A stretch of 64,000 nt of DNA from Shigella phage SHSML-45. The DNA lies in the sequence record KX130863; one strand, 5' to 3'. The notes beneath the pieces were generated by a model. The model was not told the DNA's origin. It ran no database searches and was given only the letters and a program-made list of their open reading frames with translations. The position numbers were made by a program, and so were the translations under genes. Shown here one piece after another: positions 30,516 through 62,308 of this stretch. Position 1 is the first letter of the stretch; each line of letters opens with the position of its first letter.

Positions 30516-30719
30516 TCAAACAGTTTTTTGCAGTTTTTTATGATTTTCTTTCAGGTCAATCATAATATTGCGCCAGATCATTTCTAAACCTTGCTGGCGG
30601 CCTTTCTTGTACTGCGCAAATCGGTATTTTACGGATTGCTGGGCTATTGTCAACAATTTTTTTGTTTCGCTATCTAGTGCCTTGCTAGGCTTGCCAGTTA
30701 TTAAAAGCGTTTGTTTCAT
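30516..30719 (-). CDS. small basic protein (67 aa), possibly DNA-binding
   Basis: Lys/Arg/Gln-rich; bracketed exactly by a 24-bp inverted repeat pair. Confidence 0.4.
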   Translation of the reverse strand: MKQTLLITGKPSKALDSETKKLLTIAQQSVKYRFAQYKKGRQQGLEMIWRNIMIDLKENHKKLQKTV

Positions 30720-30751
30720 ATCGTCGATTCCTTATAATATATAAGTTTACC

Positions 30752-30775
30752 GCCGATAGGCTTTAAGATATACCC
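30752..30775. repeat. 24-bp inverted repeat, right copy
   Basis: GCCGATAGGCTTTAAGATATACC; partner of 30486-30509; lies in the upstream region of ORF 30516-30719. Confidence 0.65.
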
Positions 30776-30896
30776 AATTTTTAAAGAGCGTGGCGGTAAA
30801 CTTCCCGCCGTGTAGTTCGTCATTGCCGCCCTACGAGATAAATAATAGCAAATACCAAAAATGGCGCAACCTTATTTTTGTAAAGAAACGTAAGTT

Positions 30897-31238
30897 TTAC
30901 GCCTTTCTATAGTCCCCCTTATTTTGGTTGTTTTCGGCTTGAGTTACTAACCGTAAGTTATCAATAAAATTATTACTAGGGTTACGATCAATATGATCAA
31001 TTACTAGTTTGCTATCTATTTTATAGTTAAATAATAACCACACAATACGATGCGCTAGGTAACGCTCTTTATTGAGCTGTACAGACCAATAGCCATCCTT
31101 TCTTTTAGTGCCTGCTACCCCATGAAAGGCGCAACCGGGGCGGGATACTTTCCACCGTAGGCAACTGGGACTAGTTTCATCATAGTAAAGATTATCTAGC
31201 ACGGTTTCTAAATCAATATCTTTTGTTAACTCAATCAT
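30897..31238 (-). CDS. HNH homing endonuclease (113 aa)
   Basis: Motif AHRIVWLLFNYKIDSKLVIDHIDRNPSNNFIDNLRLVTQAEN. Confidence 0.7.
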   Translation of the reverse strand: MIELTKDIDLETVLDNLYYDETSPSCLRWKVSRPGCAFHGVAGTKRKDGYWSVQLNKERYLAHRIVWLLFNYKIDSKLVIDHIDRNPSNNFIDNLRLVTQAENNQNKGDYRKA

Positions 31239-31573
31239 TAATATTCTCCTATTAGTTTCATTTGGTTATTATATTATACCAAAATTATTAGCAATGTGGC
31301 TAATACAGTTTCACCGGACGCCGTCCAGCTATTGCCTAAGTTTAAAGGAAACGGGCGCGCGAATACCACAAAACAAAGCAGATAGGCAAGTAATTTTTTC
31401 ATATATATTTGCTTTGCCCTACTTGACAAAATCTAAAAAGCTCGTGGTAGCGATAAACGGCTTATCACCTTATGATGGGATGGCTAAAAACTTCATCGCG
31501 TTCTAGGGCGTTTTAGGCGCATTCTAGCCTTGTTGATAACTTATCCCCAGAAGCAAAAATGAAATTTTCCTAG

Positions 31574-31616
31574 TTATCCACTTGACTTTTATTTTCCAGT
31601 GGATAACTACTTATTT
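31574..31616. promoter_or_regulatory. inverted pair of DnaA-box-like sites
   Basis: TTATCCACT at 31574-31582 and its complement AGTGGATAA at 31608-31616; one mismatch to the TTATCCACA consensus. Confidence 0.5.
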
Positions 31617-31835
31617 TATGAAATAAATTAATTGACTTTTGTTTGTTAGTATGTATTGAGAGAATAGTAGGCTTATAATTGCTAGGATGATAATAATGCT
31701 GGTGGATTGTAACAGCCTGAACTATTAGCAGACTACTAATCCCGTAAAATCTCATTAGCCAACTAACTATTACATAATATATAATATATACATAAATTAA
31801 TAAGAAATAATAACGATAAGAAACTATCGGCCTAA

Positions 31836-31965
31836 GTGAGAAACACTATCATTTAAGTTATCCACAAGTTTATTAACAGCACTTTTTGACTTGACACGAT
31901 AGGCGGCGATATAAGGACTTTTACACAGACTTATCCACAGGTTATCCTACTGTATAAATATACAG
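31836..31965. repeat. left arm of ~130-bp imperfect inverted repeat, containing two DnaA boxes
   Basis: TTATCCACA at 31858-31866 and 31931-31939; reverse complement of 35225-35354 matches with few mismatches over the outer ~60 bp and inner ~42 bp. Confidence 0.7.
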
Positions 31966-32231
31966 GGTAAAAAGGTAGTGTTAACAACTGCAATCAATTT
32001 TAAGCGGCCTAAATCGCATTCTAACGAGCAAAACGCTGTAGGGTAATATTAAAGTAAAGCCTTCACCAGTCGCCCTGGTGGCTCCGCCGTGTTTTGCTCT
32101 TTACTATACCGCTGCGCAGTTAGCATAAAACTAGGCGTTAGGCAAGGAAAATAAAAAGGTAAAATAAACGTTGCCCCTAGAAAGAAAATACCTTTATCAT
32201 TCTCCTACCGATTAACGAGGGAGGCCAACAA

Positions 32232-33218
32232 ATGAGGCTATATAAACCAGATAACGCAACCGTCTTAAAAGGTGCATTGCGCAACCTGCTGGACGGTAGC
32301 AGAACAACCAGCATTAAACACTTTGTTAACAAGGCCGAAGATATTCACCAAAATTTTTTTGATGATTTCGATGCCTATGATATGAGTAGTTTTTTGCAAC
32401 TGTATAAGCAGGGGGCAACGATTATCTTGTATAATCGGGATAATCACCTGCTTACTAGCAGGGGGCCGGATACCGATTTCATAATTGTAAAAGGTAGCAC
32501 AGTAAAAGCCTATGATACTGGGGCGGGCTTAGAAGTTTTTTCAATAGAAAACTATGAAGCCAACCCCAATGATCTTTATGACGTTGAAAACTTTCTTGAT
32601 TCATTTTGGCGTTATTTATCCGTTGGCTGGAATCGGTCAATTGGTGACGGGTATCGTCTGGCGGCTGTAATGGCTTTTGATGATAACGGTAATTTTTTGC
32701 TACCGCCGGAATTATATGATCGTGTATATGAAGGCGATATTGTTGACGCCGGATTCTCTTTCGAAAGAGAAGAAAGTATTGGCAATATAGAAAAACATGC
32801 TGTAAATTCTAACACTCAAAGCGTTAATACTCAAATCACTGAAAATAAAGGAAAAAACACCATGACCAAGATCGCTAATATTGTTGCCGCTAATAAATCC
32901 GCTGTTGTAAACGCTGCAAAACTGGAAGCGGGTAAAATTGCACTGACTCAAATTACGAAAGTAGCGGCGAAAAAAGCACCGTTTATGATTAAAGGTTATA
33001 TTGATACACCTATCGGTCGAGTAGTGATTGCCAACCTGCTGAGCGTAGCGGTTGACCAGTACGCCCCAAGTAACCAAAAGGCGAAAGCGGTAGCAGGGGC
33101 AGCTATGGAAGCGGCAATGCTGGAAATGGTGCAAAGTTTTAACATCGCTGAAATGATTGATGAAATGGTGAAAGGTATTGATATTTCTACTTTTACCACT
33201 AGCACCGAAAGCGAGTAA
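32232..33218 (+). CDS. hypothetical protein (328 aa)
   Basis: Long plus-strand ORF inside the inverted-repeat-bracketed segment; Ala/Lys-rich helical C-terminal third; no recognised motif. Confidence 0.55.
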   Translation: MRLYKPDNATVLKGALRNLLDGSRTTSIKHFVNKAEDIHQNFFDDFDAYDMSSFLQLYKQGATIILYNRDNHLLTSRGPDTDFIIVKGSTVKAYDTGAGLEVFSIENYEANPNDLYDVENFLDSFWRYLSVGWNRSIGDGYRLAAVMAFDDNGNFLLPPELYDRVYEGDIVDAGFSFEREESIGNIEKHAVNSNTQSVNTQITENKGKNTMTKIANIVAANKSAVVNAAKLEAGKIALTQITKVAAKKAPFMIKGYIDTPIGRVVIANLLSVAVDQYAPSNQKAKAVAGAAMEAAMLEMVQSFNIAEMIDEMVKGIDISTFTTSTESE

Positions 33219-33283
33219 TAATATTAAGCGGGGATTGTTACCCCGCTTTACTATTCCCTTGTTAACTAATAGGAGGCTAATAA

Positions 33284-33778
33284 ATGGCTGCGGAAAAATA
33301 TGGCTTCTCACTGGGAGAAGTGAGCACGGCAAAACATGATATGATCATTTTGGTCGATTGTCATACTGGCTATTGCGGAGAAGGCTGGACGGAGGAACAT
33401 TTTGTTCCCGCTGGCTGTGATCTGGACGCTTTCGCAAACGAACACGCATATGATAATGCTTCTCGTTTCGGTAGTGATGGGGAAGAAGATGAAGAAACAG
33501 GGGAATGGATTGAAAATGATAATGTATACGCGAGTCTTTATCATTATCAATTGAGTAAGTCCGGTACTTATGTAAATGGTGGCGATCCTATTAATACCGT
33601 TATGAAACTAATTATTAAACACGGTGGCGCGGAAATAATTGGTAACAAGGCGTTATTATATGCAAATCGATTAAAACAGCTTGTTTATATTCCTGATAAT
33701 TCCCGTTGGGATGAATATGCCGTTTTACAGAAAGAACTAAAACGCTGTTTCGGCGTGGAAACATTAGAAATAGTCTAA
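33284..33778 (+). CDS. hypothetical protein (164 aa)
   Basis: ORF with AGGAGG RBS 8 nt upstream; acidic central stretch (DGEEDEETGEW). Confidence 0.55.
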   Translation: MAAEKYGFSLGEVSTAKHDMIILVDCHTGYCGEGWTEEHFVPAGCDLDAFANEHAYDNASRFGSDGEEDEETGEWIENDNVYASLYHYQLSKSGTYVNGGDPINTVMKLIIKHGGAEIIGNKALLYANRLKQLVYIPDNSRWDEYAVLQKELKRCFGVETLEIV

Positions 33779-34037
33779 TGTAAAGTTTTGTAAAGGTCGC
33801 CTATTATGGCGGCCTTTTTTGTTATAATGCCTTTACACCGAAACGGTGGACTGAAAATTTTCCCTGATTTCTAGGAGGCGTTAAAATGGTTATTTTTCGA
33901 TCTATTCTGGCTAGTATCTTGGGCGCTATTTTATCACTGTTTGCAATAGCTTTCGGAGTTCACGTGGTTATTATTGGAGCAGGTATCGCGGGGTTTTCTT
34001 ACTTGTTAGGCTGTATGACTGGTAAAGGGGAATAAAA

Positions 34038-34250
34038 ATGTTAAAGAATGTTTCCCTTGCCCGTTCCAAAGGTTTTAAGCTGGTGGATGTTAACACGTTC
34101 GAGCGTCCAGATTGTAAAATCGAATATGTAGCACGCAACAAAAACGCTTTCCGTGTTACAGAAAAGAAATTTGACAAGCGCGGCAATTTGGTAGCCGAAA
34201 CGGTTAAACACTTTGCCACCTTTTACGCTGCATTTCGTGGGGTATTATGA
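34038..34250 (+). CDS. hypothetical protein (70 aa)
   Basis: ORF start-coupled to an upstream small hydrophobic ORF (33887-34035). Confidence 0.4.
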   Translation: MLKNVSLARSKGFKLVDVNTFERPDCKIEYVARNKNAFRVTEKKFDKRGNLVAETVKHFATFYAAFRGVL

Positions 34251-34365
34251 TAGCGCAAATTAAAACAGCGTTTCGTTTCTGGGGAGTGATCCTCAGCGTA
34301 TGTTTTGGCATAGTTATTATTAGCCAGCTAATGATCATTGTTGCAATCGCAGGGGAAATGCTATC

Positions 34366-34710
34366 ATGGTAATTTATGAGGGCAATCGTTTTGTTACTAA
34401 TTGCCGTCCGGCATTATTAGCAAACTATTTAAACCAGCTTTCACCAGTTTATAAAGGCGTGGTTAATATCTATGAAGGCAAAGCACATTATAAAATTTCT
34501 GCCGTTGTCACCCGTGAACTAGCGTTTCAATTTTTAACTTTTGGGTCTTGTGACGTTCAGGTTATGGGGGAAGCGTTAATAGCAGAAAATGAAAATGAAT
34601 TTACTGACATTTTCCGCAAAGTATGTACGGAGCGCCTGATTATGAAAGGCGCATATATTCAATCCACTGCTGAAAGTATTGAAACAGCATTTCGAAAAAT
34701 TGCACAATGA
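34366..34710 (+). CDS. hypothetical protein (114 aa)
   Basis: ORF overlapping the stop of an upstream small hydrophobic ORF. Confidence 0.45.
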   Translation: MVIYEGNRFVTNCRPALLANYLNQLSPVYKGVVNIYEGKAHYKISAVVTRELAFQFLTFGSCDVQVMGEALIAENENEFTDIFRKVCTERLIMKGAYIQSTAESIETAFRKIAQ

Positions 34711-34837
34711 ATAGCTGGTGGCGAAAAACACAAAGCCATAAATCTAATAATACCGCTGGGAAGCATTCCCAGCGTTTACGATTTGGTAATGGCTTCACAA
34801 TGATATTGATAATCATTCTCATTCTAGGAGCAATGGC

Positions 34838-35077
34838 ATGGCTGTAAGAATTTTACGATATGTAGAACGTAAAGAAACCGATATTATGCAACATCATTTA
34901 ACTGATGGGCAATACGCGCAATTTTTAGAAATGCAGAAAAGCGGAGCTGATACAGCAACGCTAGGAGCGTGGATCAACTCAGTTTCAACGTGTACGCATT
35001 TTGATTCATACGGGTATACGCCAGCCGAAACCGTCCAGATCTTTGACGACTACGAGAAAGAATACATAACAGACTAA
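34838..35077 (+). CDS. hypothetical protein (79 aa)
   Basis: ORF with GGAG RBS; last gene before the right inverted-repeat arm. Confidence 0.45.
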   Translation: MAVRILRYVERKETDIMQHHLTDGQYAQFLEMQKSGADTATLGAWINSVSTCTHFDSYGYTPAETVQIFDDYEKEYITD

Positions 35078-35224
35078 TAATAACGGGGCGCAACTATCGG
35101 CCCCGCTTTTTCTGGCCTTCCTCAAATTTCCCCTTATTAAAGTACCTCCTCCAAAATTAAAACGCTTAGAATGCGTTTGAGAGCGTTTTAGACCTATATT
35201 AGAGTTATTCACTACGTAGGAATA

Positions 35225-35354
35225 CTGTATAAATATACAGTAGGATAACCTGTGGATAAGTCTGTTGAAAACGCCTCAAAATCGCTAGGGTTTTGTCAAG
35301 TCAAATCGTGCTGTTAATAAACCTGTGGATAACTTAAATAACAGTGTTTCTCAC
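35225..35354. repeat. right arm of ~130-bp imperfect inverted repeat, containing two DnaA boxes
   Basis: TGTGGATAA at 35251-35259 and 35325-35333; inverted partner of 31836-31965. Confidence 0.7.
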
Positions 35355-35510
35355 TTCCCTTTCTAAATGCGAATCATTCTCAGTATGTGACTCATTCGTA
35401 TTCAACTCTGTAAATGATAACCGTTCTCATTCCCCTTTCTAAACGCGAATCATTATCATTCGCATTCAACTTCTCAAATGCGAATCAATCTCATTATCAT
35501 TCGCATTCAG
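35345..35510. repeat. imperfect tandem direct repeats
   Basis: Recurring units CCCTTTCTAAA(T/C)GCGAATCATT and TCATTCGCATTCA read directly in the sequence. Confidence 0.6.
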
Positions 35511-35515
35511 GCGAG

Positions 35516-35531
35516 CAGGGCAATTGCCCTG
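35516..35531. repeat. perfect 16-bp palindrome CAGGGCAATTGCCCTG
   Basis: Self-complementary sequence immediately before the first GTGCAAATCCGA copy. Confidence 0.7.
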
Positions 35532-35566
35532 CGCTTTTGTGCAAATCCGACATTTGCCCCCATGGA

Positions 35567-36106
35567 TTACGCGTGGGCGTGTATGTGCAAATCCGACCCA
35601 TTTTTGGTAGTGTGCAAATCCGACCCTAAAATTTCATCCCTCCATTTTACTAGAAATTCTAGATCATATGAACACTTAGACTGAGTACCATTACTAGTAG
35701 GAACATAAGCCCGGTAATAATCACCCTTTGAGGTAGTTCTAGCAACACGAATATATTTTGGAAGATTGGTTGTTTTACTGTTGGTATTTTTGCGATTTCT
35801 AGCATTTTTATAGTCTGGTATTTGTCTTAGATTCTCAGGAGAATTATTAGTGGGATCCTGATCTATATGATCTACCTGCAACTCGGGATCAATACTGCCG
35901 TTATGCAGGCAGAAAACAATCCGAGAAACTGCTAGGGTTCCCACCCCAGATACAAAGACCACATAAGACTTCCTACCTTTTCCGTCGTCCCTTAAAGTGC
36001 CTGTATGTTTTCTTTTAGGTAATCTACTCAGCCCACTGGGACTTGATGGGTCAATAAAAAATAAGTCTTTCATTTGTGCATATTCGATAGGTATATATCT
36101 TGACAT
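35567..36106 (-). CDS. HNH homing endonuclease (about 179 aa from internal start)
   Basis: Motif LAVSRIVFCLHNGSIDPELQVDHIDQDPTNNSPENLR; GGAGG RBS before ATG at 36106; the track ORF extends to 36160. Confidence 0.65.
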   Translation of the reverse strand: MSRYIPIEYAQMKDLFFIDPSSPSGLSRLPKRKHTGTLRDDGKGRKSYVVFVSGVGTLAVSRIVFCLHNGSIDPELQVDHIDQDPTNNSPENLRQIPDYKNARNRKNTNSKTTNLPKYIRVARTTSKGDYYRAYVPTSNGTQSKCSYDLEFLVKWRDEILGSDLHTTKNGSDLHIHAHA

Positions 36107-36180
36107 AATAAAATTCCTCCTATGAAGTAATATTATAACAAAATTTTCGAAAGTGTGCAAGTGAAATTTTTATATTTGAA

Positions 36181-36207
36181 AATAACCGCCCTCCCTATAA
36201 CCGCCCT
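36181..36207 (+). repeat. direct repeat AATAAC(C/T)GCCCTCCCTATAACCGCCCT, copy 1
   Basis: Near-identical 27-bp sequence recurs at 36706-36732; each copy is followed by a GTGCAAATCCGA motif. Confidence 0.65.
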
Positions 36208-36705
36208 ATTCGAATCCTGTGGGATATGTGCAAATCCGACACGGTTTTTCTAGGATTAAGATGTGCGAATCCAATGAAATTTTTGTGACTTCGATGAGAG
36301 GGTGTGTGATTGTGTGAGTTTGGGGAGAAGTTGAGAGAGCGAGAGAAATTTAGAGGCTAGAAGGATGTGGGCGCAGGATTGGTGCGGAGCACCTGATTTG
36401 CGGGGATTTTGGGGAAGAGTTGAGATAATTTGGGAAGATTTGAGATAGGTGCAGAAAAAGTAAAATTTTATTAGCAAAATGGGGCAAAATAGCTTGACAA
36501 GTGGAAATTCTTGTGGATCTAAAAACTCAGGCAATCATGGGCCTTCGGCCCGAAATAATGCTGCTATTTTCGGGAGATTATATGTTCCTAAAAACTTAGG
36601 CATTTGTGCAAATCCGACCAGTTTTTAAACTCCTGTCAGTGTGCAAATCCGATAGCAATTTCCAGAAATGTGTTTTGGAAAAATGTCTTCTAGAAATAAC
36701 TGCCC

Positions 36706-36732
36706 TCCCTATAACCGCCCTGTATAGAAAAC
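36706..36732 (+). repeat. direct repeat AATAAC(C/T)GCCCTCCCTATAACCGCCCT, copy 2
   Basis: Matches 36181-36207 with one mismatch. Confidence 0.65.
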
Positions 36733-37234
36733 CGGCCTAAGATATGTGACGTTGGTGAGAAACTGCCCTAGAATGCGTGCAAATCCGATGAATATTTTTG
36801 TGTGATCTCTAGAATTTGTGCTTATCAATTTCCTAGAAACTTAGGAGTCTAGAAGAAAGTGTTGTGCCATCCTAGCAGATGAGCGGCAACCGGTGTATCA
36901 TCTTGAACGTTAATTTATCTATTCAACAGTATTAGTTTTTATATAAGTATAAGATCCCCAGGGTTCTCATATAGAGCTTTGCCCCCACCAGAAGGTCTCG
37001 TGATGTTTCTAGTAATCTTTATTAAATTACCTGTTGACTTGTCCTGTCGCTCCGTAACCTACGCTACAAGTCAGTAATTTAAGATTCCTGAACCACCACA
37101 CCTTCTGTGTGGCAACTCTAAATGGTTAATTCTATTAACTCATAGAGTTATGATAACATACATTTAGCTATCTGTCAACGAGAGTTTGTATTTGAGTCTC
37201 GGTACAGGTATTGTGCACCGAGACATGCAGAGTA

Positions 37235-38119
37235 CTATAATAATTCTTGGTATGCTTTCTGATACGCCTCAGTATCTGTAGGTGTATCTTTTGCTAACGC
37301 AATTAGTTCATCCGTTATCTGAATATTCGTATTATAACGTTGGTGGAACTCGTCTGGAATTTCTAGATATCTATTTATGAATGCTGCAGCAAGCGGTGTA
37401 ACTAACCCAATTTCTAGAGATAACTTAACTTGTTTCTCATAAATTAAATATTGAGAATCAGACGGTATTGGTGGGGTTACATCAATTTTTTCTGGTTCTT
37501 TTTCTGGTAGCAATGGATTGTTATACAATGCTTCATCTGGAAGCACAGATTTACGCTCTTTAAATATATAAGTTTCTAGATCAGATGCTTTAGACCCTGA
37601 ATACACAGCAAAAACGCTAGCTTTACCTTGAGATGCCCTAACTGGTAAGTAACTAGTAGGGTAGCTCCTTAATGCATCGTGGAATGGACTTCCTGAGTAT
37701 TTGTATGTATCCCCATAGAGATCATCAATATTCATTCGTTCATCTTCAAAGATATGGAAAGAGCTAAATGATGGGATAGTAAAGTATTCCATCTGTAATC
37801 CATAAACTAAGAAACGATGTGCGTATGCACTGATTTTTAAGACTGTAAATGCTTTCTCACCTTCTTTATAGGAATTGCCTTTTGAAGTAACTTGGTAACG
37901 TTTACAAAACATCTCTACTAGACGTTTCTCATTAATACCAAGAGTGGAGTACAGTCGTCCATTTAATCCTATAAGTGCATCGAACATAAATGCTAGTTTA
38001 TCTTTTTCTTCTTGGGATAGTTCTGGAAATGGCAATACTTTGGCATTAGGAACACTATTGTTCTCTTTAGGTTTTGTTTTACCAGCATTTTGTCTTAGTT
38101 TATCTTTAAAGTTATACAT
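37235..38119 (-). CDS. hypothetical protein (294 aa)
   Basis: First long minus-strand ORF after the repeat region; no recognised motif. Confidence 0.55.
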   Translation of the reverse strand: MYNFKDKLRQNAGKTKPKENNSVPNAKVLPFPELSQEEKDKLAFMFDALIGLNGRLYSTLGINEKRLVEMFCKRYQVTSKGNSYKEGEKAFTVLKISAYAHRFLVYGLQMEYFTIPSFSSFHIFEDERMNIDDLYGDTYKYSGSPFHDALRSYPTSYLPVRASQGKASVFAVYSGSKASDLETYIFKERKSVLPDEALYNNPLLPEKEPEKIDVTPPIPSDSQYLIYEKQVKLSLEIGLVTPLAAAFINRYLEIPDEFHQRYNTNIQITDELIALAKDTPTDTEAYQKAYQELL

Positions 38120-38198
38120 TATTATCTCCCGTTTTTAAGGTCTGGATGACCTTCTTTTTATTTTAGAGCCTCCGTAGAGGCTCATATATTAGGAATTA

Positions 38199-38810
38199 TT
38201 AATCCTTTTTACTCTCATTAATAACAGCCCCCAATGCTTCCATAATTGCATCTTCTAGACTTCCATGTTTATCAGGATTACTAAAATGAATAGTATAAAC
38301 AGAATTCCTAGAAACTCCAGCATCCGCAGGTGCTACGCTTCGCATATCAGATTCAAAAGCTTCTTGGGTATGTTGCAGCTGTACAGAAGGGCCGTAATCT
38401 TCACCAAACTTATATGACTGTGTGTTACTTACCACACCCCCACAAGGAACATTGTGCATATCCGACATTAATCTTTTATCAGAATTATTTAACATTGCAA
38501 TTGGCCCAGACTGCCATGGATCTCTAATAGTCACTGGAGTACTAGGGCGGTTCACCTCAGTCTTCACAAGTTTGTACCCTGCATCGATTAGTGCATTAAT
38601 CAGGTTATCCGCCGGGATGCGAGCCGTACCAAAAATCTTACGAGCATCTTCGAGCTTACCTTCAAGATCTTTACATGCTCTAAGGTCAGTGTGTGCAAAT
38701 GTTAGCTTCATAGATTTGAATTGTACAGTAGCAGTTAAATCTTTAAAGCTATAATCCCATGTGTTCAGTTCATGGTCTGGTACTACTTGAATAGGTTGTT
38801 GTGTAAACAT
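38199..38810 (-). CDS. hypothetical protein (203 aa)
   Basis: ORF start-stop coupled to the downstream small membrane protein genes. Confidence 0.5.
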   Translation of the reverse strand: MFTQQPIQVVPDHELNTWDYSFKDLTATVQFKSMKLTFAHTDLRACKDLEGKLEDARKIFGTARIPADNLINALIDAGYKLVKTEVNRPSTPVTIRDPWQSGPIAMLNNSDKRLMSDMHNVPCGGVVSNTQSYKFGEDYGPSVQLQHTQEAFESDMRSVAPADAGVSRNSVYTIHFSNPDKHGSLEDAIMEALGAVINESKKD

Positions 38811-55488: not shown

Positions 55489-55857
55489 TTACATCGCCTG
55501 AGTAAATGTACGACTAATAACGTCGTTCTGTTGTTCACGAGTCAGTGCGTTAAAACGTACAGCGTACCCTGAAACACGGATAGTTAATTGAGGGTATTTT
55601 TCAGGATGTTTCTGTGCATCCAAAAGCTGATCACGACTTAACACATTGACATTTAGGTGCTGACCTCCCTCGATTTGAGGAACTACTTCCACCTTGACTT
55701 CACGGAAGGATTCGGGGTCAAAATGTGGTGTGATACCTTCTAGATCCTCAACCAGAACTTTTTGTTTAAGTTCACCATCTTTAGAGTACAGTTGAATAAT
55801 CTGATTATCATGAACAAGATTAATTACGCCAGACTTAAGATTTTGATATGCTTTCAT
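55489..55857 (-). CDS. grcA: autonomous glycyl radical cofactor GrcA-like (about 122 aa)
   Basis: C-terminus [57 protein letters not shown] closely matches recalled E. coli GrcA/YfiD including the RVSGY glycyl radical motif; AGGAG RBS before ATG at 55857; the track ORF extends into the adjacent tRNA. Confidence 0.8.
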
Positions 55858-55870
55858 TAGCTCTCCTGTT

Positions 55871-55946
55871 TGGTAGTTAGTAGTGGATTTGAACCACTGT
55901 AGTCGCTCCGTATGAAGGAGGTGCATAACCACTCTGCCAACTAACT
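55871..55946 (-). tRNA. tRNA, anticodon CAU (Met or Ile2)
   Basis: Cloverleaf read manually: 7-bp acceptor stem, T-arm AGTGG-TTCAAAT-CCACT, anticodon loop TTCATAC, encoded CCA. Confidence 0.7.
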
Positions 55947-56134: not shown

Positions 56135-56425
56135 TCACACACTGTCTAAGTAAGAAGTATAGTGGAATTTAGTTTCTCCAGTATTATCTACTTCTACCTC
56201 AGTTCGTGGTACTTGACGAACCACACCATGAATCATCTTATATCGGATGCCTCTAGCTGGTTCATGATCTTTTGGAAATACTTGTTTAACCGTCACTACT
56301 TTATATTCTTCACGCGGTGTTAGCACTACTACTTGATCACCCTCTTTGATTTTCCAAGAAGATGGAAATTCATAGGTGTATCTTTGACCACCGGTAAGGA
56401 ATATAACAGAAAGATAACGTTTCAT
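56135..56425 (-). CDS. hypothetical protein (96 aa)
   Basis: ORF between tRNA genes. Confidence 0.4.
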   Translation of the reverse strand: MKRYLSVIFLTGGQRYTYEFPSSWKIKEGDQVVVLTPREEYKVVTVKQVFPKDHEPARGIRYKMIHGVVRQVPRTEVEVDNTGETKFHYTSYLDSV

Positions 56426-56502
56426 TTGGTTTCCCTCTCATTAATTTATATAAATATTATAGCAATAAATAAGAGAGAAAGCAAATGAGTTTTTCTTGAA
56501 AT

Positions 56503-56578
56503 TGGTAGCGGGTTCCAGTACTGCCCTGGACTTACTTAGCTTATGAGACTAAGAAGAACTCTATGCCTCCCACCCGCA
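56503..56578 (-). tRNA. tRNA-like, anticodon CAU, atypical T-loop
   Basis: 76 nt fitting standard cloverleaf positions: anticodon arm TTAGT-CTCATAA-GCTAA, T-stem TCCAG/CTGGA with non-canonical loop GGCAGTA, one acceptor mismatch, encoded CCA. Confidence 0.45.
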
Positions 56579-56831
56579 ATTGTTTGGTCATTCTAGGCAG
56601 GACTCGAACCTGCTATCACTTGTGCGGACTTACGAGAACCATTCTTTCACTCGAATCGAACGAGCTTCTGCCCTCGCCAAGTTGGTTTCCCCATCAACCA
56701 CGCTAGAATGTTAGATTGTTTTCAGTGCAAGAGTCCGAGTCTTGGACACGACCGCTTCGCAAGTACATAGGCAGCTTATCATGAGTCAGCACTTCCGAAT
56801 TGCTAGCTCCGTGTTCTGCACTGAAATTCTG

Positions 56832-57179
56832 TTAGTTTAATCGTAAAGTATTATCTACTTCACCATTAATTGTTCGGCATTCCTCTGGGATTGCCGGGGT
56901 GGCCTTGTATTCCCACCACTCAGCACCATCATATTCCCCACGTTCTAGCCAAGTTCCATCGGCAAACCATACATTACCATAAAGTAATTGTCCACCGTAT
57001 CCAGAATCATATTCAAAGTCTAGGTTATTAAGAAAATCCTCAATGTATTCTTCTGTATAACCTAAAGGTAATACCCAAACTTTTTTATCCCCATAATACC
57101 CGAATTCTATTTTAATACACTTAACTTTAGAATTGGTATTTTTTAAGGCGAGTAACAGCTCTTCTTTAGCATTACGCAT
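56832..57179 (-). CDS. hypothetical protein (115 aa)
   Basis: ORF between tRNA genes. Confidence 0.4.
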   Translation of the reverse strand: MRNAKEELLLALKNTNSKVKCIKIEFGYYGDKKVWVLPLGYTEEYIEDFLNNLDFEYDSGYGGQLLYGNVWFADGTWLERGEYDGAEWWEYKATPAIPEECRTINGEVDNTLRLN

Positions 57180-61622: not shown

Positions 61623-62123
61623 TTTAAGTATTTTTAAGAACTCTCGTAAAAACTCTTAAAAATACAGACGATACCGGGAGAGTCATAAGTCTCACTCATT
61701 AAGTATTTCAAGACAAAATACAGTAACGTCTATTATTTTCCAGTTTAAGTCAAGGTGACTTAGTGGTTATGTCCTGCGGTATACTGAGGACTCGGTTAGG
61801 TTAGGGTCATGACTCCCCACCTTTTGCTGCTACTCAACAGGAGTTATCGCGAATTACCTGTGCTATTGTGCACCATTAGTGACATCTCTCATGTCAGCAT
61901 TTCCCACTTTGTGGATAGCTTGAAAAACTACTCCGATATGGAGAAAGAACTTCACTATCCTAGAATACCTTCTAAAGTTCTTCTTTAGCCTGGACATAGT
62001 TAAATCGTAATAAAACTATTCAGCAGACTGGTTGGTTAGTCTGGAACCAACTACCGCGTGGTTTAGGCAGTGCGCAACTAACCTCGGAAGCTTTTACGTT
62101 AAAAGCACCAGTTATCCAGTTCT

Positions 62124-62195
62124 TACCGACCGTAGGATTCGAACCTACATCTTCCACCAGTTACGGCTTGATAATACCGTTTATACTAGATCGGC
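62124..62195 (-). tRNA. tRNA-like sequence, anticodon undetermined, no encoded CCA
   Basis: Canonical T-arm GTAGG-TTCGAAT-CCTAC and pairable acceptor GCCGATC/GGTCGGT, but no convincing anticodon stem by manual folding. Confidence 0.4.
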
Positions 62196-62308
62196 AGTGT
62201 TACTACATAAGTGATTTCCACACCCCACTATTTATAAATTAGAGAAGAATTACTCTCTAATTTATGAATATATTATACAGAATTTATAAGCATTTAGCAA
62301 ATGAATTT

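What the first reader, a model, noticed from the sequence alone, without database searches (positions are those of the whole stretch)
56589..56709. A ~120-nt tRNA-like element closed by a perfect 8-bp stem
CATTCTAG at 56588-56595 pairs with CTAGAATG at 56702-56709. Inside is a canonical T-arm (GCAGG-TTCGAGT-CCTGC) directly adjacent to the 3-prime strand of the stem, as in a tRNA acceptor, plus a D-arm-like hairpin and a second T-arm-like hairpin (GCTCG-TTCGATT-CGAGT). At 120 nt it is too long for a standard tRNA. It may be an intron-containing or composite tRNA, or another structured RNA derived from one.
Basis: seen in the sequence. Interest (0 to 1): 0.55.

Follow-up and report, generated by a model that had tools for sequence, protein, structure and literature searches.

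The report
Phage T5 tRNA-like stable RNA2
This is the Salmonella phage Shivani copy of "RNA2", a 125-base RNA already annotated in phage T5: a tRNA-shaped molecule whose anticodon loop is replaced by a conserved 48-base extra domain, so it cannot decode, and its function is still unknown.

Summary
The window is Salmonella phage Shivani, a T5-like phage. The element (56710..56585, minus) is the ortholog of T5 rna2. The T5 and BF23 GenBank records annotate rna2 as a "tRNA-like stable RNA with unknown functions"; Shivani does not annotate it, and Rfam and ARAGORN give nothing there.

An 8-bp stem alone is at chance level. Comparative analysis is decisive. About 30 distinct homologs support an acceptor stem, D-arm, T-arm, a 5-bp anticodon-like stem and an inner T-arm-like hairpin. 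In that alignment 95.8% of cells are paired, 24 of 32 pairs change on both sides, and 0 of 500 shuffles reach this.

The single-sequence RNAfold structure of the long arm is wrong. A 48-nt domain sits inside the anticodon loop. Deleting it in silico makes ARAGORN call a 73-nt cloverleaf, but the remaining loop (GCGAGCA) has no U33, no purine at 37 and no conserved anticodon.

The family also occurs in T4-like Acinetobacter phages and in an uncultured 164-kb phage. The core-motif pattern scan found no match in 185,579 bacterial genomes.

Best reading: a non-decoding RNA on a tRNA scaffold, matured by the tRNA machinery and acting through the inserted domain. Its target is unknown. It is already known as an entity; interest is moderate.

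The parts
56585..56710 (-). Whole element: Shivani ortholog of phage T5 rna2 (RNA2, tRNA-like stable RNA), 126 nt including the 3' ACCA
   Evidence: The window is 100% identical to Salmonella phage Shivani KP143763. The element lies 122 nt downstream of the T5.067 homolog, the same spacing as T5 misc_RNA rna2 at 32959-33083. It differs from T5 RNA2 at 3 of 122 positions. Covariance model R1 scores it 154.5 bits, against 15-32 bits for ordinary tRNAs.
56703..56710 (-). Acceptor stem, 5' strand: C(-1) at 56710 plus A1-G7 (AUUCUAG) at 56709-56703
   Evidence: All 8 pairs show changes on both sides across the family, with 95% of cells paired. KPN4 (UACGGGG/UCCCGUA), Slocum (GGGUACU/GGUACCC) and L064 (GACUUUG/CAAAGUC) have entirely different but complementary stems. 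The 8th pair, C(-1)-G73, occurs only in the T5-like subgroup.
56683..56700 (-). D-arm: 5-bp stem UGGUU/AACCA with loop GAUGGGGA
   Evidence: All 5 pairs change on both sides and 98.7% of cells are paired. The run of G in the loop is conserved: three positions are invariant and one is >=90% in A1.
56678..56682 (-). Anticodon-like stem, 5' strand (ACUUG), pairing with 56622-56618 (CAAGU)
   Evidence: RNAalifold predicts it independently. All 5 pairs show changes on both sides across ten different helices, for example CUUG/CAAG, UCUG/CAGA, CCUC/GAGG, CCAU/GUGG, CUCCG/CGGAG and CCCAU/AUGGG.
56626..56673 (-). 48-nt inserted domain that replaces the middle of the anticodon loop. It comprises P4 (GGGC 56673-56670 with GUCC 56629-56626), Hy (AGAA 56669-56666 with CUCG 56636-56633), the inner T-arm-like hairpin, the J strand and the UAA bulge
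   Evidence: P4 is predicted by RNAalifold; its outer pair alternates C-G and U-A in both phage lineages. In Hy, G43-C77 is invariant, and A44-U76 appears as AU 10, UA 3, CG 2, GC 1 and is never unpaired. P4 and Hy are less certain than the other helices. Deleting this segment in silico makes ARAGORN call a 73-nt cloverleaf.
56649..56665 (-). Inner T-arm-like hairpin GCUCG-UUCGAUU-CGAGU
   Evidence: 98.8% of cells are paired and 4 of 5 pairs change on both sides: GCUCG/CGAGU, GCUGG/CCAGU, UACGG/CCGUA, GAUGG/CCAUU, GUUGG/CCAAU. The loop is UUCRAUU in all members.
56637..56648 (-). J strand GAAAGAAUGGUU: conserved unpaired 3' side of the internal loop below the inner hairpin, containing AA(U/G)GG
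   Evidence: The two A and the GG of AA(U/G)GG are invariant in alignments A1, A4 and A5. GAAAGAAUGGUU is identical in T5-like phages, the uncultured phage L064 and four of the five Acinetobacter phage sequences; Acj9 has GGAAGAAUGGUU.
56630..56632 (-). Invariant UAA bulge between Hy and P4 on the 3' strand
   Evidence: Invariant in every family member.
56674..56677 (-). L1 (GCGA). Together with L2 (GCA, 56625-56623) it forms the remnant of a 7-nt anticodon loop
   Evidence: A 4 + 3 nt split is kept in almost all members. C at 'position 33' and the final A are invariant, while the middle bases vary without compensation (CGA, CUA, CUU, CGG, CAG). ARAGORN reads the loop as gcGAGca after in-silico excision.
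56597..56613 (-). T-arm GCAGG-UUCGAGU-CCUGC
   Evidence: 98.7% of cells are paired, 3 of 5 pairs change on both sides, and GGUUC...CC is invariant.
56589..56596 (-). Acceptor stem, 3' strand: CUAGAAU at 56596-56590, plus G73 at 56589, which pairs with C(-1)
   Evidence: See the acceptor 5' strand entry. T5 has CUAGGAU here, giving U3.G70 instead of U3-A70.
56585..56588 (-). 3' tail ACCA. It was created by a 280-bp deletion whose junction lies between 56587 and 56586
   Evidence: ESCO40 reads ...CTAGAATGAC|ACTATAAAG after RNA2 and ...GCACTGAC|CAAACAATTG after tRNA-Pro. Shivani reads ...CTAGAATGAC|CAAACAATTG, so the deletion lies between TGAC direct repeats. T5-type RNA2 ends GACAC, with no encoded CCA.

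Best explanation
The element is the phage Shivani ortholog of bacteriophage T5 RNA2, a non-decoding small RNA built on a tRNA scaffold.

Proposed mechanism, step by step:
1. It is transcribed on the minus strand as part of the phage's polycistronic tRNA operon (inferred).
2. It folds into a tRNA-like shape with an acceptor stem, a D-arm carrying the conserved G run, and a T-arm. This fold should let the host tRNA-processing enzymes release it and keep it stable: RNase P at the 5' end, and endo- and exonucleases with or without the CCA-adding enzyme at the 3' end (inferred from the structure).
3. Where the middle of the anticodon loop should be, it carries a conserved 48-nt domain. The domain consists of two short stacked helices with an invariant UAA bulge, a conserved single strand (GAAAGAAUGG) and a second T-arm-like hairpin. 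The 'anticodon arm' is therefore about three times its normal length and ends in a T-loop instead of an anticodon. The molecule cannot read codons (shown by sequence).
4. The inserted domain is most likely the working part. The RNA would act in trans by binding a factor common to gamma-proteobacterial hosts. My preferred guess is a competitor or decoy for a protein or RNA that recognises tRNA T-arms or elbows, such as a tRNA-directed defence or processing factor. That last step is inference only, and I give it about 25%.
5. It is an accessory function: dispensable in the laboratory but kept in nature.
For: Identity:
- The window is Shivani.
- The element has the same position and about 97.5% identity to T5 misc_RNA rna2, 'tRNA-like stable RNA with unknown functions'. 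BF23 carries the same annotation.

Structure:
- RNAalifold and a covariance-model alignment of 30 distinct homologs give 95.8% paired cells. 24 of 32 pairs change on both sides, 0 of 500 shuffles reach this, and slid controls give 32-44% paired.
- The arm model gives 90.2% paired cells. All 5 pairs of the anticodon-like stem and 4 of 5 pairs of the inner hairpin change on both sides. One Hy pair shows all four Watson-Crick types.
- G.U pairs are frequent (for example columns 30/101, GU in 24 of 30 sequences). These would be A.C on the other strand, which fixes the minus strand as the RNA strand.

tRNA scaffold:
- Ordinary tRNAs match model R1 end to end at 15-32 bits.
- Removing the insert in silico gives an ARAGORN cloverleaf for Shivani, T5 and L064 at the default threshold, and for most other members at a relaxed threshold.

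Non-decoding:
- ARAGORN and Rfam do not call it.
- The remnant loop has C33 and C37, and its 'anticodon' varies.
- All 9 regular tRNAs of the window encode CCA, whereas T5-type RNA2 ends GACAC.

Selection on the insert:
- The J strand, the UAA bulge and the T-loop are invariant or nearly so across Demerecviridae, five T4-like Acinetobacter phage sequences (Straboviridae where the record is classified) and an uncultured 164-kb phage.
- 416 of 486 matching phage records hold at least 80% of the element.
- The pattern scan of 185,579 bacterial and archaeal species genomes found no match.

Accessory role:
- T5Mos carries the deletion 30661-38625, which includes rna2 (position compared), and it is still propagated and infects PARIS-free cells. 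The region is a hotspot of non-essential deletions (PMC11464382; PMC12483538).

Context:
- It lies in or next to a tRNA cluster, often a few nt after a tRNA's CCA; L064, with no tRNA in its 10-kb locus, is the exception.
- No strong promoter or terminator of its own was found.
Against: - No transcript, end-mapping or binding data could be examined. 'Stable RNA' rests only on the notes in the T5 and BF23 GenBank records; the primary papers were not in the library.
- The target of the inserted domain is unknown, and no neighbouring gene gives a consistent hint.
- P4 and Hy are short and only partly supported: P4 has 80% of cells paired and Hy 87%, and their outer pairs are often mismatched.
- In the T4-like Acinetobacter phages the acceptor stem is weak or absent. 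In phage 133 a tRNA-Cys starts about 7 nt after the T-arm. A complete tRNA scaffold is therefore not universal.
- A few members encode CCA (EH5, SIY1lw, KPN4, and Shivani through its deletion), so aminoacylation is not excluded.
Confidence: 0.75

Rival explanations
1. Intron-containing tRNA: the 48-55-nt insert is removed after transcription, leaving a functional tRNA of about 73 nt.
For: The insert sits exactly inside a 7-nt loop closed by a 5-bp stem. After in-silico excision ARAGORN calls a cloverleaf, 'tRNA-Leu(gag)', for Shivani, T5 and L064.
Against: - The remaining loop, GCGAGCA, has C33 and C37 instead of U33 and a purine.
- The 'anticodon' is not conserved: GAG, UAG, UUG, GGA and AGA all occur.
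- The scaffold has a short variable loop, whereas bacterial tRNA-Leu has a long variable arm (established knowledge).
- The insert is far smaller than any group I intron. I saw no bulge-helix-bulge motif, and the archaeal-type splicing endonuclease that cuts such motifs is not known in these hosts (established knowledge). The insert is at loop position 35/36, not 37/38.
- The insert itself is the most conserved part of the molecule.
- T5 annotates the 125-nt species as the stable RNA.
Confidence: 0.03
2. Decayed tRNA pseudogene: a former tRNA gene disrupted by an insertion, transcribed passively and without function.
For: The T5 tRNA region is a deletion and rearrangement hotspot and is dispensable in the laboratory. 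A degenerate tRNA(CAU) lies right next to the element in Shivani.
Against: - Compensatory changes keep every helix intact across Tequintavirus, Epseptimavirus, Sugarlandvirus, Myunavirus, Serratia phage Slocum, the T4-like Acinetobacter phages and an uncultured phage.
- Unpaired insert motifs are invariant.
- The element is retained in more than 400 genomes, including Shivani, which lost the neighbouring tRNA-Pro.
Confidence: 0.04
3. Chargeable tRNA-like RNA: the molecule receives CCA, is aminoacylated by a synthetase that ignores the anticodon, and acts in a non-decoding reaction, either tmRNA-like or as an amino-acid donor.
For: It has a 7-8-bp acceptor stem stacked on a canonical T-arm. CCA is encoded in EH5, SIY1lw and KPN4, and ACCA in Shivani. 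Some phage tRNAs are known to rely on host CCA addition (established knowledge for T4).
Against: - Most members (T5, BF23, My1, phiR201, Slocum, L064) encode no CCA, while all regular tRNAs of the window do.
- The discriminator base and the first pairs are not conserved: G, U or A at position 73, and an A1.C72 mismatch in EH5.
- There is no G3.U70 pair. ARAGORN finds no tmRNA and no tag reading frame is conserved; the mini-ORFs vary in frame, and My1 and L029 lack the AUG.
- The Acinetobacter phage versions have a poor acceptor stem or none.
Confidence: 0.1
4. Cis-acting processing or stability module: the structure serves only to guide or punctuate RNase P and RNase E cleavage of the polycistronic tRNA and ORF transcript, or to protect neighbouring RNAs. 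The released RNA has no function of its own.
For: It lies inside the tRNA transcription unit between an ORF and other RNAs, and no promoter or terminator of its own was detected. tRNA-like punctuation is a known principle (established knowledge).
Against: - A plain tRNA or hairpin would be enough for punctuation, so this does not explain the invariant J strand, UAA bulge and second T-loop.
- The flanks differ completely between lineages: an ORF or another RNA in T5-like phages, tRNA-Lys in Epseptimavirus, tRNA-Gly in Acj9 and 133, and no tRNA within 10 kb in L064.
Confidence: 0.08
5. Small protein-coding gene: several GenBank records annotate a 'hypothetical protein' over this stretch.
For: ORFs of 47 and 44 codons lie on the + strand at 56563-56706 and 56580-56714. 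'Hypothetical protein' features overlie the homologs in phiR2-01 (g056), Slocum (CPT_Slocum_106), Acj9 (p148) and others.
Against: Substitutions follow base-pairing rather than codon structure. Indels of 1-6 nt occur between members. The annotated ORFs lie on different strands and in different frames in different phages.
Confidence: 0.01

Closest known systems
Bacteriophage T5 rna2 / RNA2 (T5s06, NC_005859 32959-33083) and BF23 rna2 (AJ604530 5701-5825)
   Same: Orthologous. It has the same position downstream of the T5.067 homolog, the same length, 119 of 122 identical bases within the stem-to-stem region, and the same covariance-model score range.
   Different: Shivani's copy is unannotated. 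It carries CUAGAAU instead of CUAGGAU in the acceptor stem. A 280-bp deletion has fused it to the 3' trailer of tRNA-Pro, so it encodes ACCA and has lost the downstream RNAIV, promoter P13a and tRNA-Pro.
Bacteriophage T4 species 1 and species 2 RNAs (rnaC, rnaD)
   Same: They are small stable RNAs of unknown function encoded inside a phage tRNA cluster. The 3' part of rnaC has an 8-bp acceptor-like stem and a canonical T-arm.
   Different: They are not homologous by the test run here. Model R1 matches only the acceptor and T-arm of rnaC, at 16.9 bits, and nothing in rnaD. The insert motifs are absent. The T4-like Acinetobacter phages do carry true RNA2-family members.
Bacteriophage T5 RNA1 (T5s03, 'tRNA-like stable RNA')
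   Same: It is another tRNA-like stable RNA of the same region. It shares the motif GGUUGAGAUA..AAAUGG..UCUCGU(G/A)A with the Epseptimavirus and Sugarlandvirus forms of RNA2, where the motif forms the Hy helix and J strand.
   Different: Model R1 does not match it at E <= 1. It has no second T-arm hairpin, and in RNA1 the motif forms a simple hairpin next to the T-arm. No homolog with this motif exists in the Shivani window.
Engineered 'tRNA scaffold' RNAs, in which a recombinant RNA is inserted into the anticodon stem of a tRNA for stable expression in E. coli (Ponchon and Dardel; from my own knowledge)
   Same: The architecture is the same: intact acceptor, D and T arms, with a cargo domain replacing the anticodon loop on an extended anticodon stem. 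This is thought to give tRNA-type processing and nuclease resistance.
   Different: RNA2 is a natural, evolutionarily conserved example. Its cargo is a specific conserved domain of unknown function. Whether it is processed and stabilised in the same way has not been tested here.
Bacterial Y RNA-like YrlA and the tRNA-like domain of tmRNA
   Same: Both are non-decoding RNAs that mimic the tRNA acceptor, T-arm and D-loop elbow.
   Different: There is no Rfam hit even at E <= 10. ARAGORN finds no tmRNA. YrlA is topologically permuted, with its 5' and 3' ends in the Ro-binding stem (from my own knowledge). RNA2 has no G3.U70 pair and no tag reading frame.

Membership tests
T5 RNA2 (rna2) family of tRNA-like stable RNAs | Sequence and structure homology to T5 rna2 | tested here: met
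   119 of 122 bases are identical to T5. Model R1 gives 154.5 bits for the window and 150.6 bits for T5.
T5 RNA2 (rna2) family of tRNA-like stable RNAs | Same genomic position: minus strand of the tRNA region, 122 nt downstream of the T5.067 homolog | tested here: met
   The window ORF at 56832..57179 matches phrog_3972 and corresponds to T5.067. The spacing is the same as in T5.
T5 RNA2 (rna2) family of tRNA-like stable RNAs | Accumulates as a stable RNA of about 125 nt in infected cells | not testable with these tools
   Only the GenBank notes say 'stable RNA'. The primary literature is not held in the library.
Canonical tRNA (Rfam RF00005) | Acceptor stem, D-arm and T-arm with conserved GG and a T-loop | tested here: met
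   Covariation supports all three arms. GG and GGUUC..CC are invariant.
Canonical tRNA (Rfam RF00005) | 7-nt anticodon loop with U33, a purine at 37 and a conserved anticodon | tested here: not met
   The loop is interrupted by a 48-nt domain. The remnant, GCGAGCA, has C33 and C37, and its middle bases vary.
Canonical tRNA (Rfam RF00005) | Recognised by tRNA finders | tested here: not met
   ARAGORN gives nothing, with or without the intron option. Rfam gives nothing at the gathering threshold or at E <= 10.
Intron-containing tRNA (group I or bulge-helix-bulge type) | Either a group I intron core, or a bulge-helix-bulge motif at position 37/38, leaving a canonical anticodon loop after excision | tested here: not met
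   The insert is 48 nt, and no Rfam intron hit was found. By my reading of the supported structure there is no bulge-helix-bulge geometry, and the insert lies after loop position 35. The excised loop is non-canonical.
tmRNA | tRNA-Ala-like acceptor with G3.U70, plus a tag reading frame | tested here: not met
   ARAGORN's tmRNA search is negative. The third pair is U3-A70 (U3.G70 in T5). The mini-ORFs are not conserved.
T4 species 1 / species 2 RNA (rnaC, rnaD) | Homology to T4 rnaC or rnaD | tested here: not met
   R1 matches only the acceptor and T-arm of rnaC, at 16.9 bits, and nothing in rnaD.
T4 species 1 / species 2 RNA (rnaC, rnaD) | Small non-tRNA gene embedded in a phage tRNA cluster | tested here: met
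   The element lies between tRNA-Ile and tRNA-Asp on the tRNA strand.

The most novel reading that the evidence does not exclude
RNA2 defines a phage RNA family, not described as a family in Rfam or in the literature I could search, that crosses virus families: Demerecviridae, T4-like Acinetobacter phages, and an uncultured 164-kb phage. It would be a natural 'tRNA scaffold' whose cargo is a second T-loop 'elbow' held at the end of a long arm. It would work as a molecular decoy or adaptor for host machinery that recognises tRNA T-arms or elbows, for example by blunting tRNA-targeting anti-phage nucleases or toxins, or by redirecting a tRNA-processing or tRNA-modifying enzyme.
Probability: 0.2. 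Interest if true: 0.7.

Novelty: already known. Interest (0 to 1): 0.4.

Why it matters
T5-like phages are model systems and candidates for phage therapy. Their tRNA region has recently been shown to hold counter-defence functions, such as the T5 tRNA-Lys that neutralises PARIS (PMC11464382).

RNA2 is among the most widely retained genes of that region. Even so, only the T5 and BF23 records name it, it has no Rfam family, and many records mis-annotate it as a protein.

This work adds three things:
- A secondary structure supported by covariation, which differs from the thermodynamic prediction.
- The finding that the conserved, and therefore probably functional, part is a domain inserted into the anticodon loop.
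- The finding that the same RNA occurs in unrelated T4-like Acinetobacter phages.

Together these make the function of a decades-old orphan RNA directly testable. If it proves to be a decoy for tRNA-binding host factors, it would extend the idea that phage tRNA clusters are anti-defence islands.

Tried and rejected
- **RNAfold minimum-free-energy structure.** Its long arm (CUUG/UAAG plus CGAGGGC/GUUCUCG) is rejected. The CUUG/UAAG pairs are broken in 10-12 of 17 sequences, and the arm shows almost no changes on both sides. Single-sequence folds of relatives were not significant and were mutually inconsistent.
- **Alternative register AGAA/UUCU for the Hy helix.** It works only in T5-type sequences, so I replaced it with the register in which G43-C77 and A44-U76 are paired in all members.
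- **First IMG/VR pattern.** The pattern was mis-specified by one base and returned one chance hit, L008. Corrected patterns worked.
- **Chance hits in the pattern scans.** Eight of the 18 metagenome loci were chance matches without a T-arm or other family features, as were three IMG/VR loci from the looser pattern (L067, L069, L070).
- **Rfam.** No match at the gathering threshold or at E <= 10.
- **Mini-ORF or tmRNA-like reading of AAUGG...UAA.** The frame and length vary, and My1 and L029 lack the AUG.
- **Homology to T4 rnaC or rnaD.** Not supported. The shared GGUUGAGAUA decamer in rnaC lies in a D-arm-like hairpin and is probably coincidental.
- **Functional hints from neighbouring genes.**
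  - The flanking Shivani ORFs belong to families of unknown function.
  - The YqeY-like gene next to the L064 copy is not found in T5-like or Acinetobacter phages.
  - The RF-1-domain gene next to the ZZ1 copy was annotated only in the ZZ1 and W16 records among those I examined.
- **Literature searches for the primary description of T5 RNA2.** Nothing was found in the held library.
- **Acceptor stem in the Acinetobacter phage versions.** I found only weak, AU-rich, irregular helices, and in phage 133 there is little room for a 3' strand.
Full report
**1. What is in the sequence**

The window is 100% identical to Salmonella phage Shivani (KP143763), a T5-like Tequintavirus. All ten tRNA genes that ARAGORN and Rfam find in the window lie on the minus strand between 55871 and 62196. 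The finding sits among them.

- CAUUCUAG (56710-56703) pairs with CUAGAAUG (56596-56589).
- A D-arm-like hairpin, UGGUU-GAUGGGGA-AACCA, lies at 56700-56683.
- A T-arm-like hairpin, GCUCG-UUCGAUU-CGAGU, lies at 56665-56649.
- A canonical T-arm, GCAGG-UUCGAGU-CCUGC, lies at 56613-56597 and abuts the 3' strand of the closing stem.

**2. Is it more than chance?**

The 8-bp stem alone is not. The window has 177 perfect 8-bp inverted repeats with a 60-150-nt spacer, against about 137 +/- 12 expected. The single-sequence fold is not better than shuffles (z = -0.99).

Perfect 5-bp + TTCRANN hairpins are rare: 10 on the minus strand, of which 7 are in tRNAs and 2 in this element. The real proof comes from relatives, described in section 4.

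**3. Identity**

ARAGORN and Rfam give nothing here, even at E <= 10, and Shivani's own record annotates nothing.

The T5 reference record (NC_005859 = AY543070) annotates misc_RNA rna2 (T5s06) at the equivalent place, 122 nt downstream of the homolog of window ORF 56832..57179 (T5.067). It starts at the same C and ends ...GAUGACA. The BF23 tRNA-region record (AJ604530) and T5 record AY692264 carry the same gene.

Shivani differs from T5 at 3 of 122 positions. 486 phage records match the element, and 416 of them hold at least 80% of it. The listed records carry no feature or a 'hypothetical protein' there; only the T5 and BF23 records name rna2.

So the thing is already known as an entity, but its function is not. 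I could not read the primary T5 papers, so 'stable RNA' rests on the GenBank notes.

**4. Structure from comparison**

I collected homologs from these lineages:
- Tequintavirus and Epseptimavirus (phiR2-01, EH5, SIY1lw and others).
- Sugarlandvirus (KPN4, and a metagenomic variant L041).
- Myunavirus (My1) and Serratia phage Slocum.
- IMG/VR and metagenome contigs.

RNAalifold independently predicts the acceptor stem, the D-stem, a 5-bp stem joining 56682-56678 to 56622-56618, a GGGY/RUCC helix, and the T-arm.

A covariance model (R1) scores family members at 104-156 bits in Demerecviridae and 55-57 bits in Acinetobacter phages. Ordinary tRNAs align end to end at only 15-32 bits. That fits a tRNA scaffold carrying something extra.

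On the model alignment of 30 distinct sequences:
- 95.8% of cells are paired, against 85.2% in shuffles.
- 24 of 32 pairs have changes on both sides.
- 0 of 500 shuffles reach any measure.
- Sliding the partners drops pairing to 32-44%.

The acceptor stems of KPN4 (UACGGGG/UCCCGUA), Slocum (GGGUACU/GGUACCC) and the uncultured phage L064 (GACUUUG/CAAAGUC) are completely different from Shivani's, yet complementary. Frequent G.U pairs fix the minus strand as the RNA strand.

**5. The long arm**

RNAfold pairs CUUG with UAAG and CGAGGGC with GUUCUCG. Comparison rejects this. The CUUG/UAAG pairs are broken in 10-12 of 17 sequences, and the arm has almost no changes on both sides.

Instead, ACUUG pairs with CAAGU. 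This is the anticodon-stem position, since only GAUA (4 nt) separates it from the T-arm. All five pairs covary through ten different helices.

Beyond it lie, in order:
- A 4 x 3 internal loop, GCGA/GCA.
- P4, GGGC/GUCC. Its outer pair alternates C-G and U-A in both phage lineages.
- An invariant UAA bulge.
- A short helix, Hy. Its two central pairs are always formed; one is invariant G-C, and the other occurs as AU 10, UA 3, CG 2 and GC 1.
- A conserved unpaired strand, GAAAGAAUGGUU.
- The inner hairpin, with 98.8% of cells paired and 4 of 5 pairs changing on both sides, and loop UUCRAUU throughout.

P4 and Hy remain the least certain parts, at 80% and 87% of cells paired.

**6. A tRNA with its anticodon loop replaced**

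L1 + L2 add up to 7 nt. If the 48 nt from P4 to P4 (56673-56626) are deleted in silico, ARAGORN calls a 73-nt cloverleaf. It does so at the default threshold for Shivani, T5 and L064, and at a relaxed threshold for most other members.

That loop reads GCGAGCA. Position 33 is an invariant C and position 37 a C, and the 'anticodon' varies (GAG, UAG, UUG, GGA, AGA).

The insert is far too small for a group I intron. I saw no bulge-helix-bulge motif in the supported structure, the insert is not at 37/38, and it is itself the best-conserved part of the molecule.

The intron reading is therefore very unlikely, and the molecule cannot decode. Architecturally it is what biotechnologists call a 'tRNA scaffold': intact acceptor, D and T arms with a cargo on an extended anticodon stem (comparison from my own knowledge).

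**7. The 3' end, and a deletion specific to Shivani**

All nine regular tRNAs of the window encode CCA. T5-type RNA2 ends GAC-AC, and BF23, My1, phiR2-01, Slocum and L064 also lack CCA. EH5, SIY1lw and KPN4 do encode it.

Shivani's ACCA is an accident of a 280-bp deletion relative to phage ESCO40, between two TGAC repeats. The deletion removed RNAIV, promoter P13a and tRNA-Pro, and joined RNA2 to the trailer of tRNA-Pro.

The T5 tRNA region is a known hotspot of non-essential deletions (PMC12483538). T5Mos carries the deletion 30661-38625, which includes rna2 when compared with the positions, and it still infects cells without PARIS (PMC11464382). RNA2 is thus dispensable in the laboratory.

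**8. Distribution**

The family is not confined to T5-like phages. True members, with the same anticodon-like stem, P4, Hy, inner hairpin, J strand, UAA bulge and T-arm, occur in the T4-like Acinetobacter phages ZZ1/W16/Henu6, Acj9 and 133 (all Straboviridae) and in the AB1I1M/AB2I2 group, whose records carry no family assignment.

In these phages the acceptor stem is weak or missing. In phage 133 a tRNA-Cys begins about 7 nt after the T-arm.

A complete cloverleaf version lies in an uncultured 164-kb phage contig (L064 3709-3827), with no tRNA gene within its 10-kb locus.

A pattern scan of one genome from each of 185,579 bacterial and archaeal species found no match.

T4's own species 1 and 2 RNAs (rnaC, rnaD) are analogous but not homologous.

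T5 RNA1, the other 'tRNA-like stable RNA', shares the motif GGUUGAGAUA..AAAUGG..UCUCGU(G/A)A with some RNA2 forms but is not matched by the model.

**9. How it most likely works**

Shown:
- It is the RNA2 ortholog.
- It has a covariation-supported tRNA-like scaffold.
- Its anticodon loop is replaced by a conserved domain ending in a second T-loop.
- The unpaired motifs of that domain are under strong constraint across unrelated phages of different hosts.

Inferred:
- Co-transcription with the tRNA operon. No promoter or terminator of its own was found, and in T5 the flanking promoters are P14b and P13a.
- Release and stabilisation by the tRNA-processing machinery.
- Action in trans through the inserted domain.

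The J-strand GG lies 3' of the inner T-hairpin, and the D-loop carries GGGG or GG-N-GG. This suggests a second elbow-like T-loop/GG knob, but that is speculation.

My preferred function is a decoy or adaptor for a host factor that recognises tRNA T-arms or elbows, in line with the counter-defence role now shown for T5 tRNA-Lys. It has no direct support, and I rate it at about 0.25. The identity and the non-decoding scaffold model together I rate at 0.75.

**10. Verdict**

This is a real, conserved structured RNA. 'Intron-containing tRNA' is not supported.

It is already known as T5 RNA2, so novelty is low. Three things are new relative to the annotation: the corrected secondary structure, the view of the insert as cargo, and the occurrence across virus families. 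Interest is 0.4.

Noticed in passing
window 56720-56826 (minus strand): A second element of about 107 nt lies immediately upstream of RNA2, closed by a perfect 10-bp stem (UUUCAGUGCA / UGCACUGAAA). It is at least 94% identical in 218 T5-like phage records, but the T5 record leaves it unannotated and Rfam has no match. In Epseptimavirus a tRNA-Lys occupies this position. It may be a further uncharacterised stable RNA; the copies diverge too little to test covariation.
   Followed up: partly
window 56503-56577 (minus strand): A degenerate tRNA-like gene with a CUCAUAA loop (anticodon CAU) and a non-canonical 'T-loop' GGCAGUA sits where T5 has its 'initiator tRNA-fMet'. The Shivani and ESCO40 version is very different from T5's, and both ARAGORN and Rfam miss it. 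The phiR2-01 record labels the equivalent gene 'tRNA-Pseudo-CAT'.
   Followed up: partly
window 56586/56587 junction (minus strand); compare L002 1815-2094: Shivani, and vB_SLGBLB0002 at 99.8% identity, carries a 280-bp deletion relative to phage ESCO40 between two TGAC repeats. It removes RNAIV, promoter P13a and tRNA-Pro, and it gives RNA2 an encoded ACCA end.
   Followed up: yes
window 56456-56484 (minus strand): A T5-type early promoter, TTGCTT - 17 nt - TATAAT with an A-rich upstream stretch, lies in front of ORF 56425..56135. The generic sigma-70 scan missed it because its -35 hexamer matches the consensus at only 3 of 6 positions.
   Followed up: no
window 62123-62196 (minus strand): ARAGORN calls a 'tRNA-Ser' with the odd anticodon ACT, with no encoded CCA (it ends ..GGUCGGUAA) and the lowest Rfam score in the window (36.8 bits). 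It may be a pseudo-tRNA or another tRNA-like RNA.
   Followed up: no
L003 2-145 (T5 RNA1, NC_005859 30501-30644): T5 RNA1, a 'tRNA-like stable RNA', contains a hairpin UGAGAUA-AAUGGUC-UAUCUCG followed by UGA. This repeats the GGUUGAGAUA..AAAUGG..UCUCGURA motif of the RNA2 insert as found in Epseptimavirus and Sugarlandvirus. The motif occurs only once in the Shivani window, in RNA2.
   Followed up: partly
L064 3005-3508 (uncultured 164-kb phage contig IMGVR_UViG_3300035181_002522): A YqeY/GatB-tail-like protein gene (Pfam PF09424; phrog_1460 'tRNA amidotransferase') lies 200 nt upstream of this phage's RNA2-family member. tblastn finds homologs in Vibrio, Aeromonas, Pseudomonas and Caulobacter phages, but none in T5-like or Acinetobacter phages, so there is no consistent linkage.
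   Followed up: yes
L063 1667-1897 (Acinetobacter phage ZZ1; also W16): A 76-aa protein consisting only of an RF-1 domain (Pfam PF00472, E = 3e-10) is encoded about 20 nt downstream of the RNA2-family member in T4-like Acinetobacter phages ZZ1 and W16.
   Followed up: partly
phiR2-01 g056 (L004 685-831), Slocum CPT_Slocum_106 (L007 642-821), Acj9p148 (L060 587-817), and other records: Many GenBank records annotate a 'hypothetical protein' across the RNA2 homolog, on either strand. These calls are almost certainly spurious.
   Followed up: partly
window 55489-55932 (minus strand): A 147-aa ORF that overlaps tRNA-Met at its start carries a glycyl-radical domain (Pfam PF01228, E = 5.6e-18). The shorter Shivani CDS CPT_Shivani58, in the same stretch, is annotated 'acetyltransferase, glycine radical domain'.
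   Followed up: no
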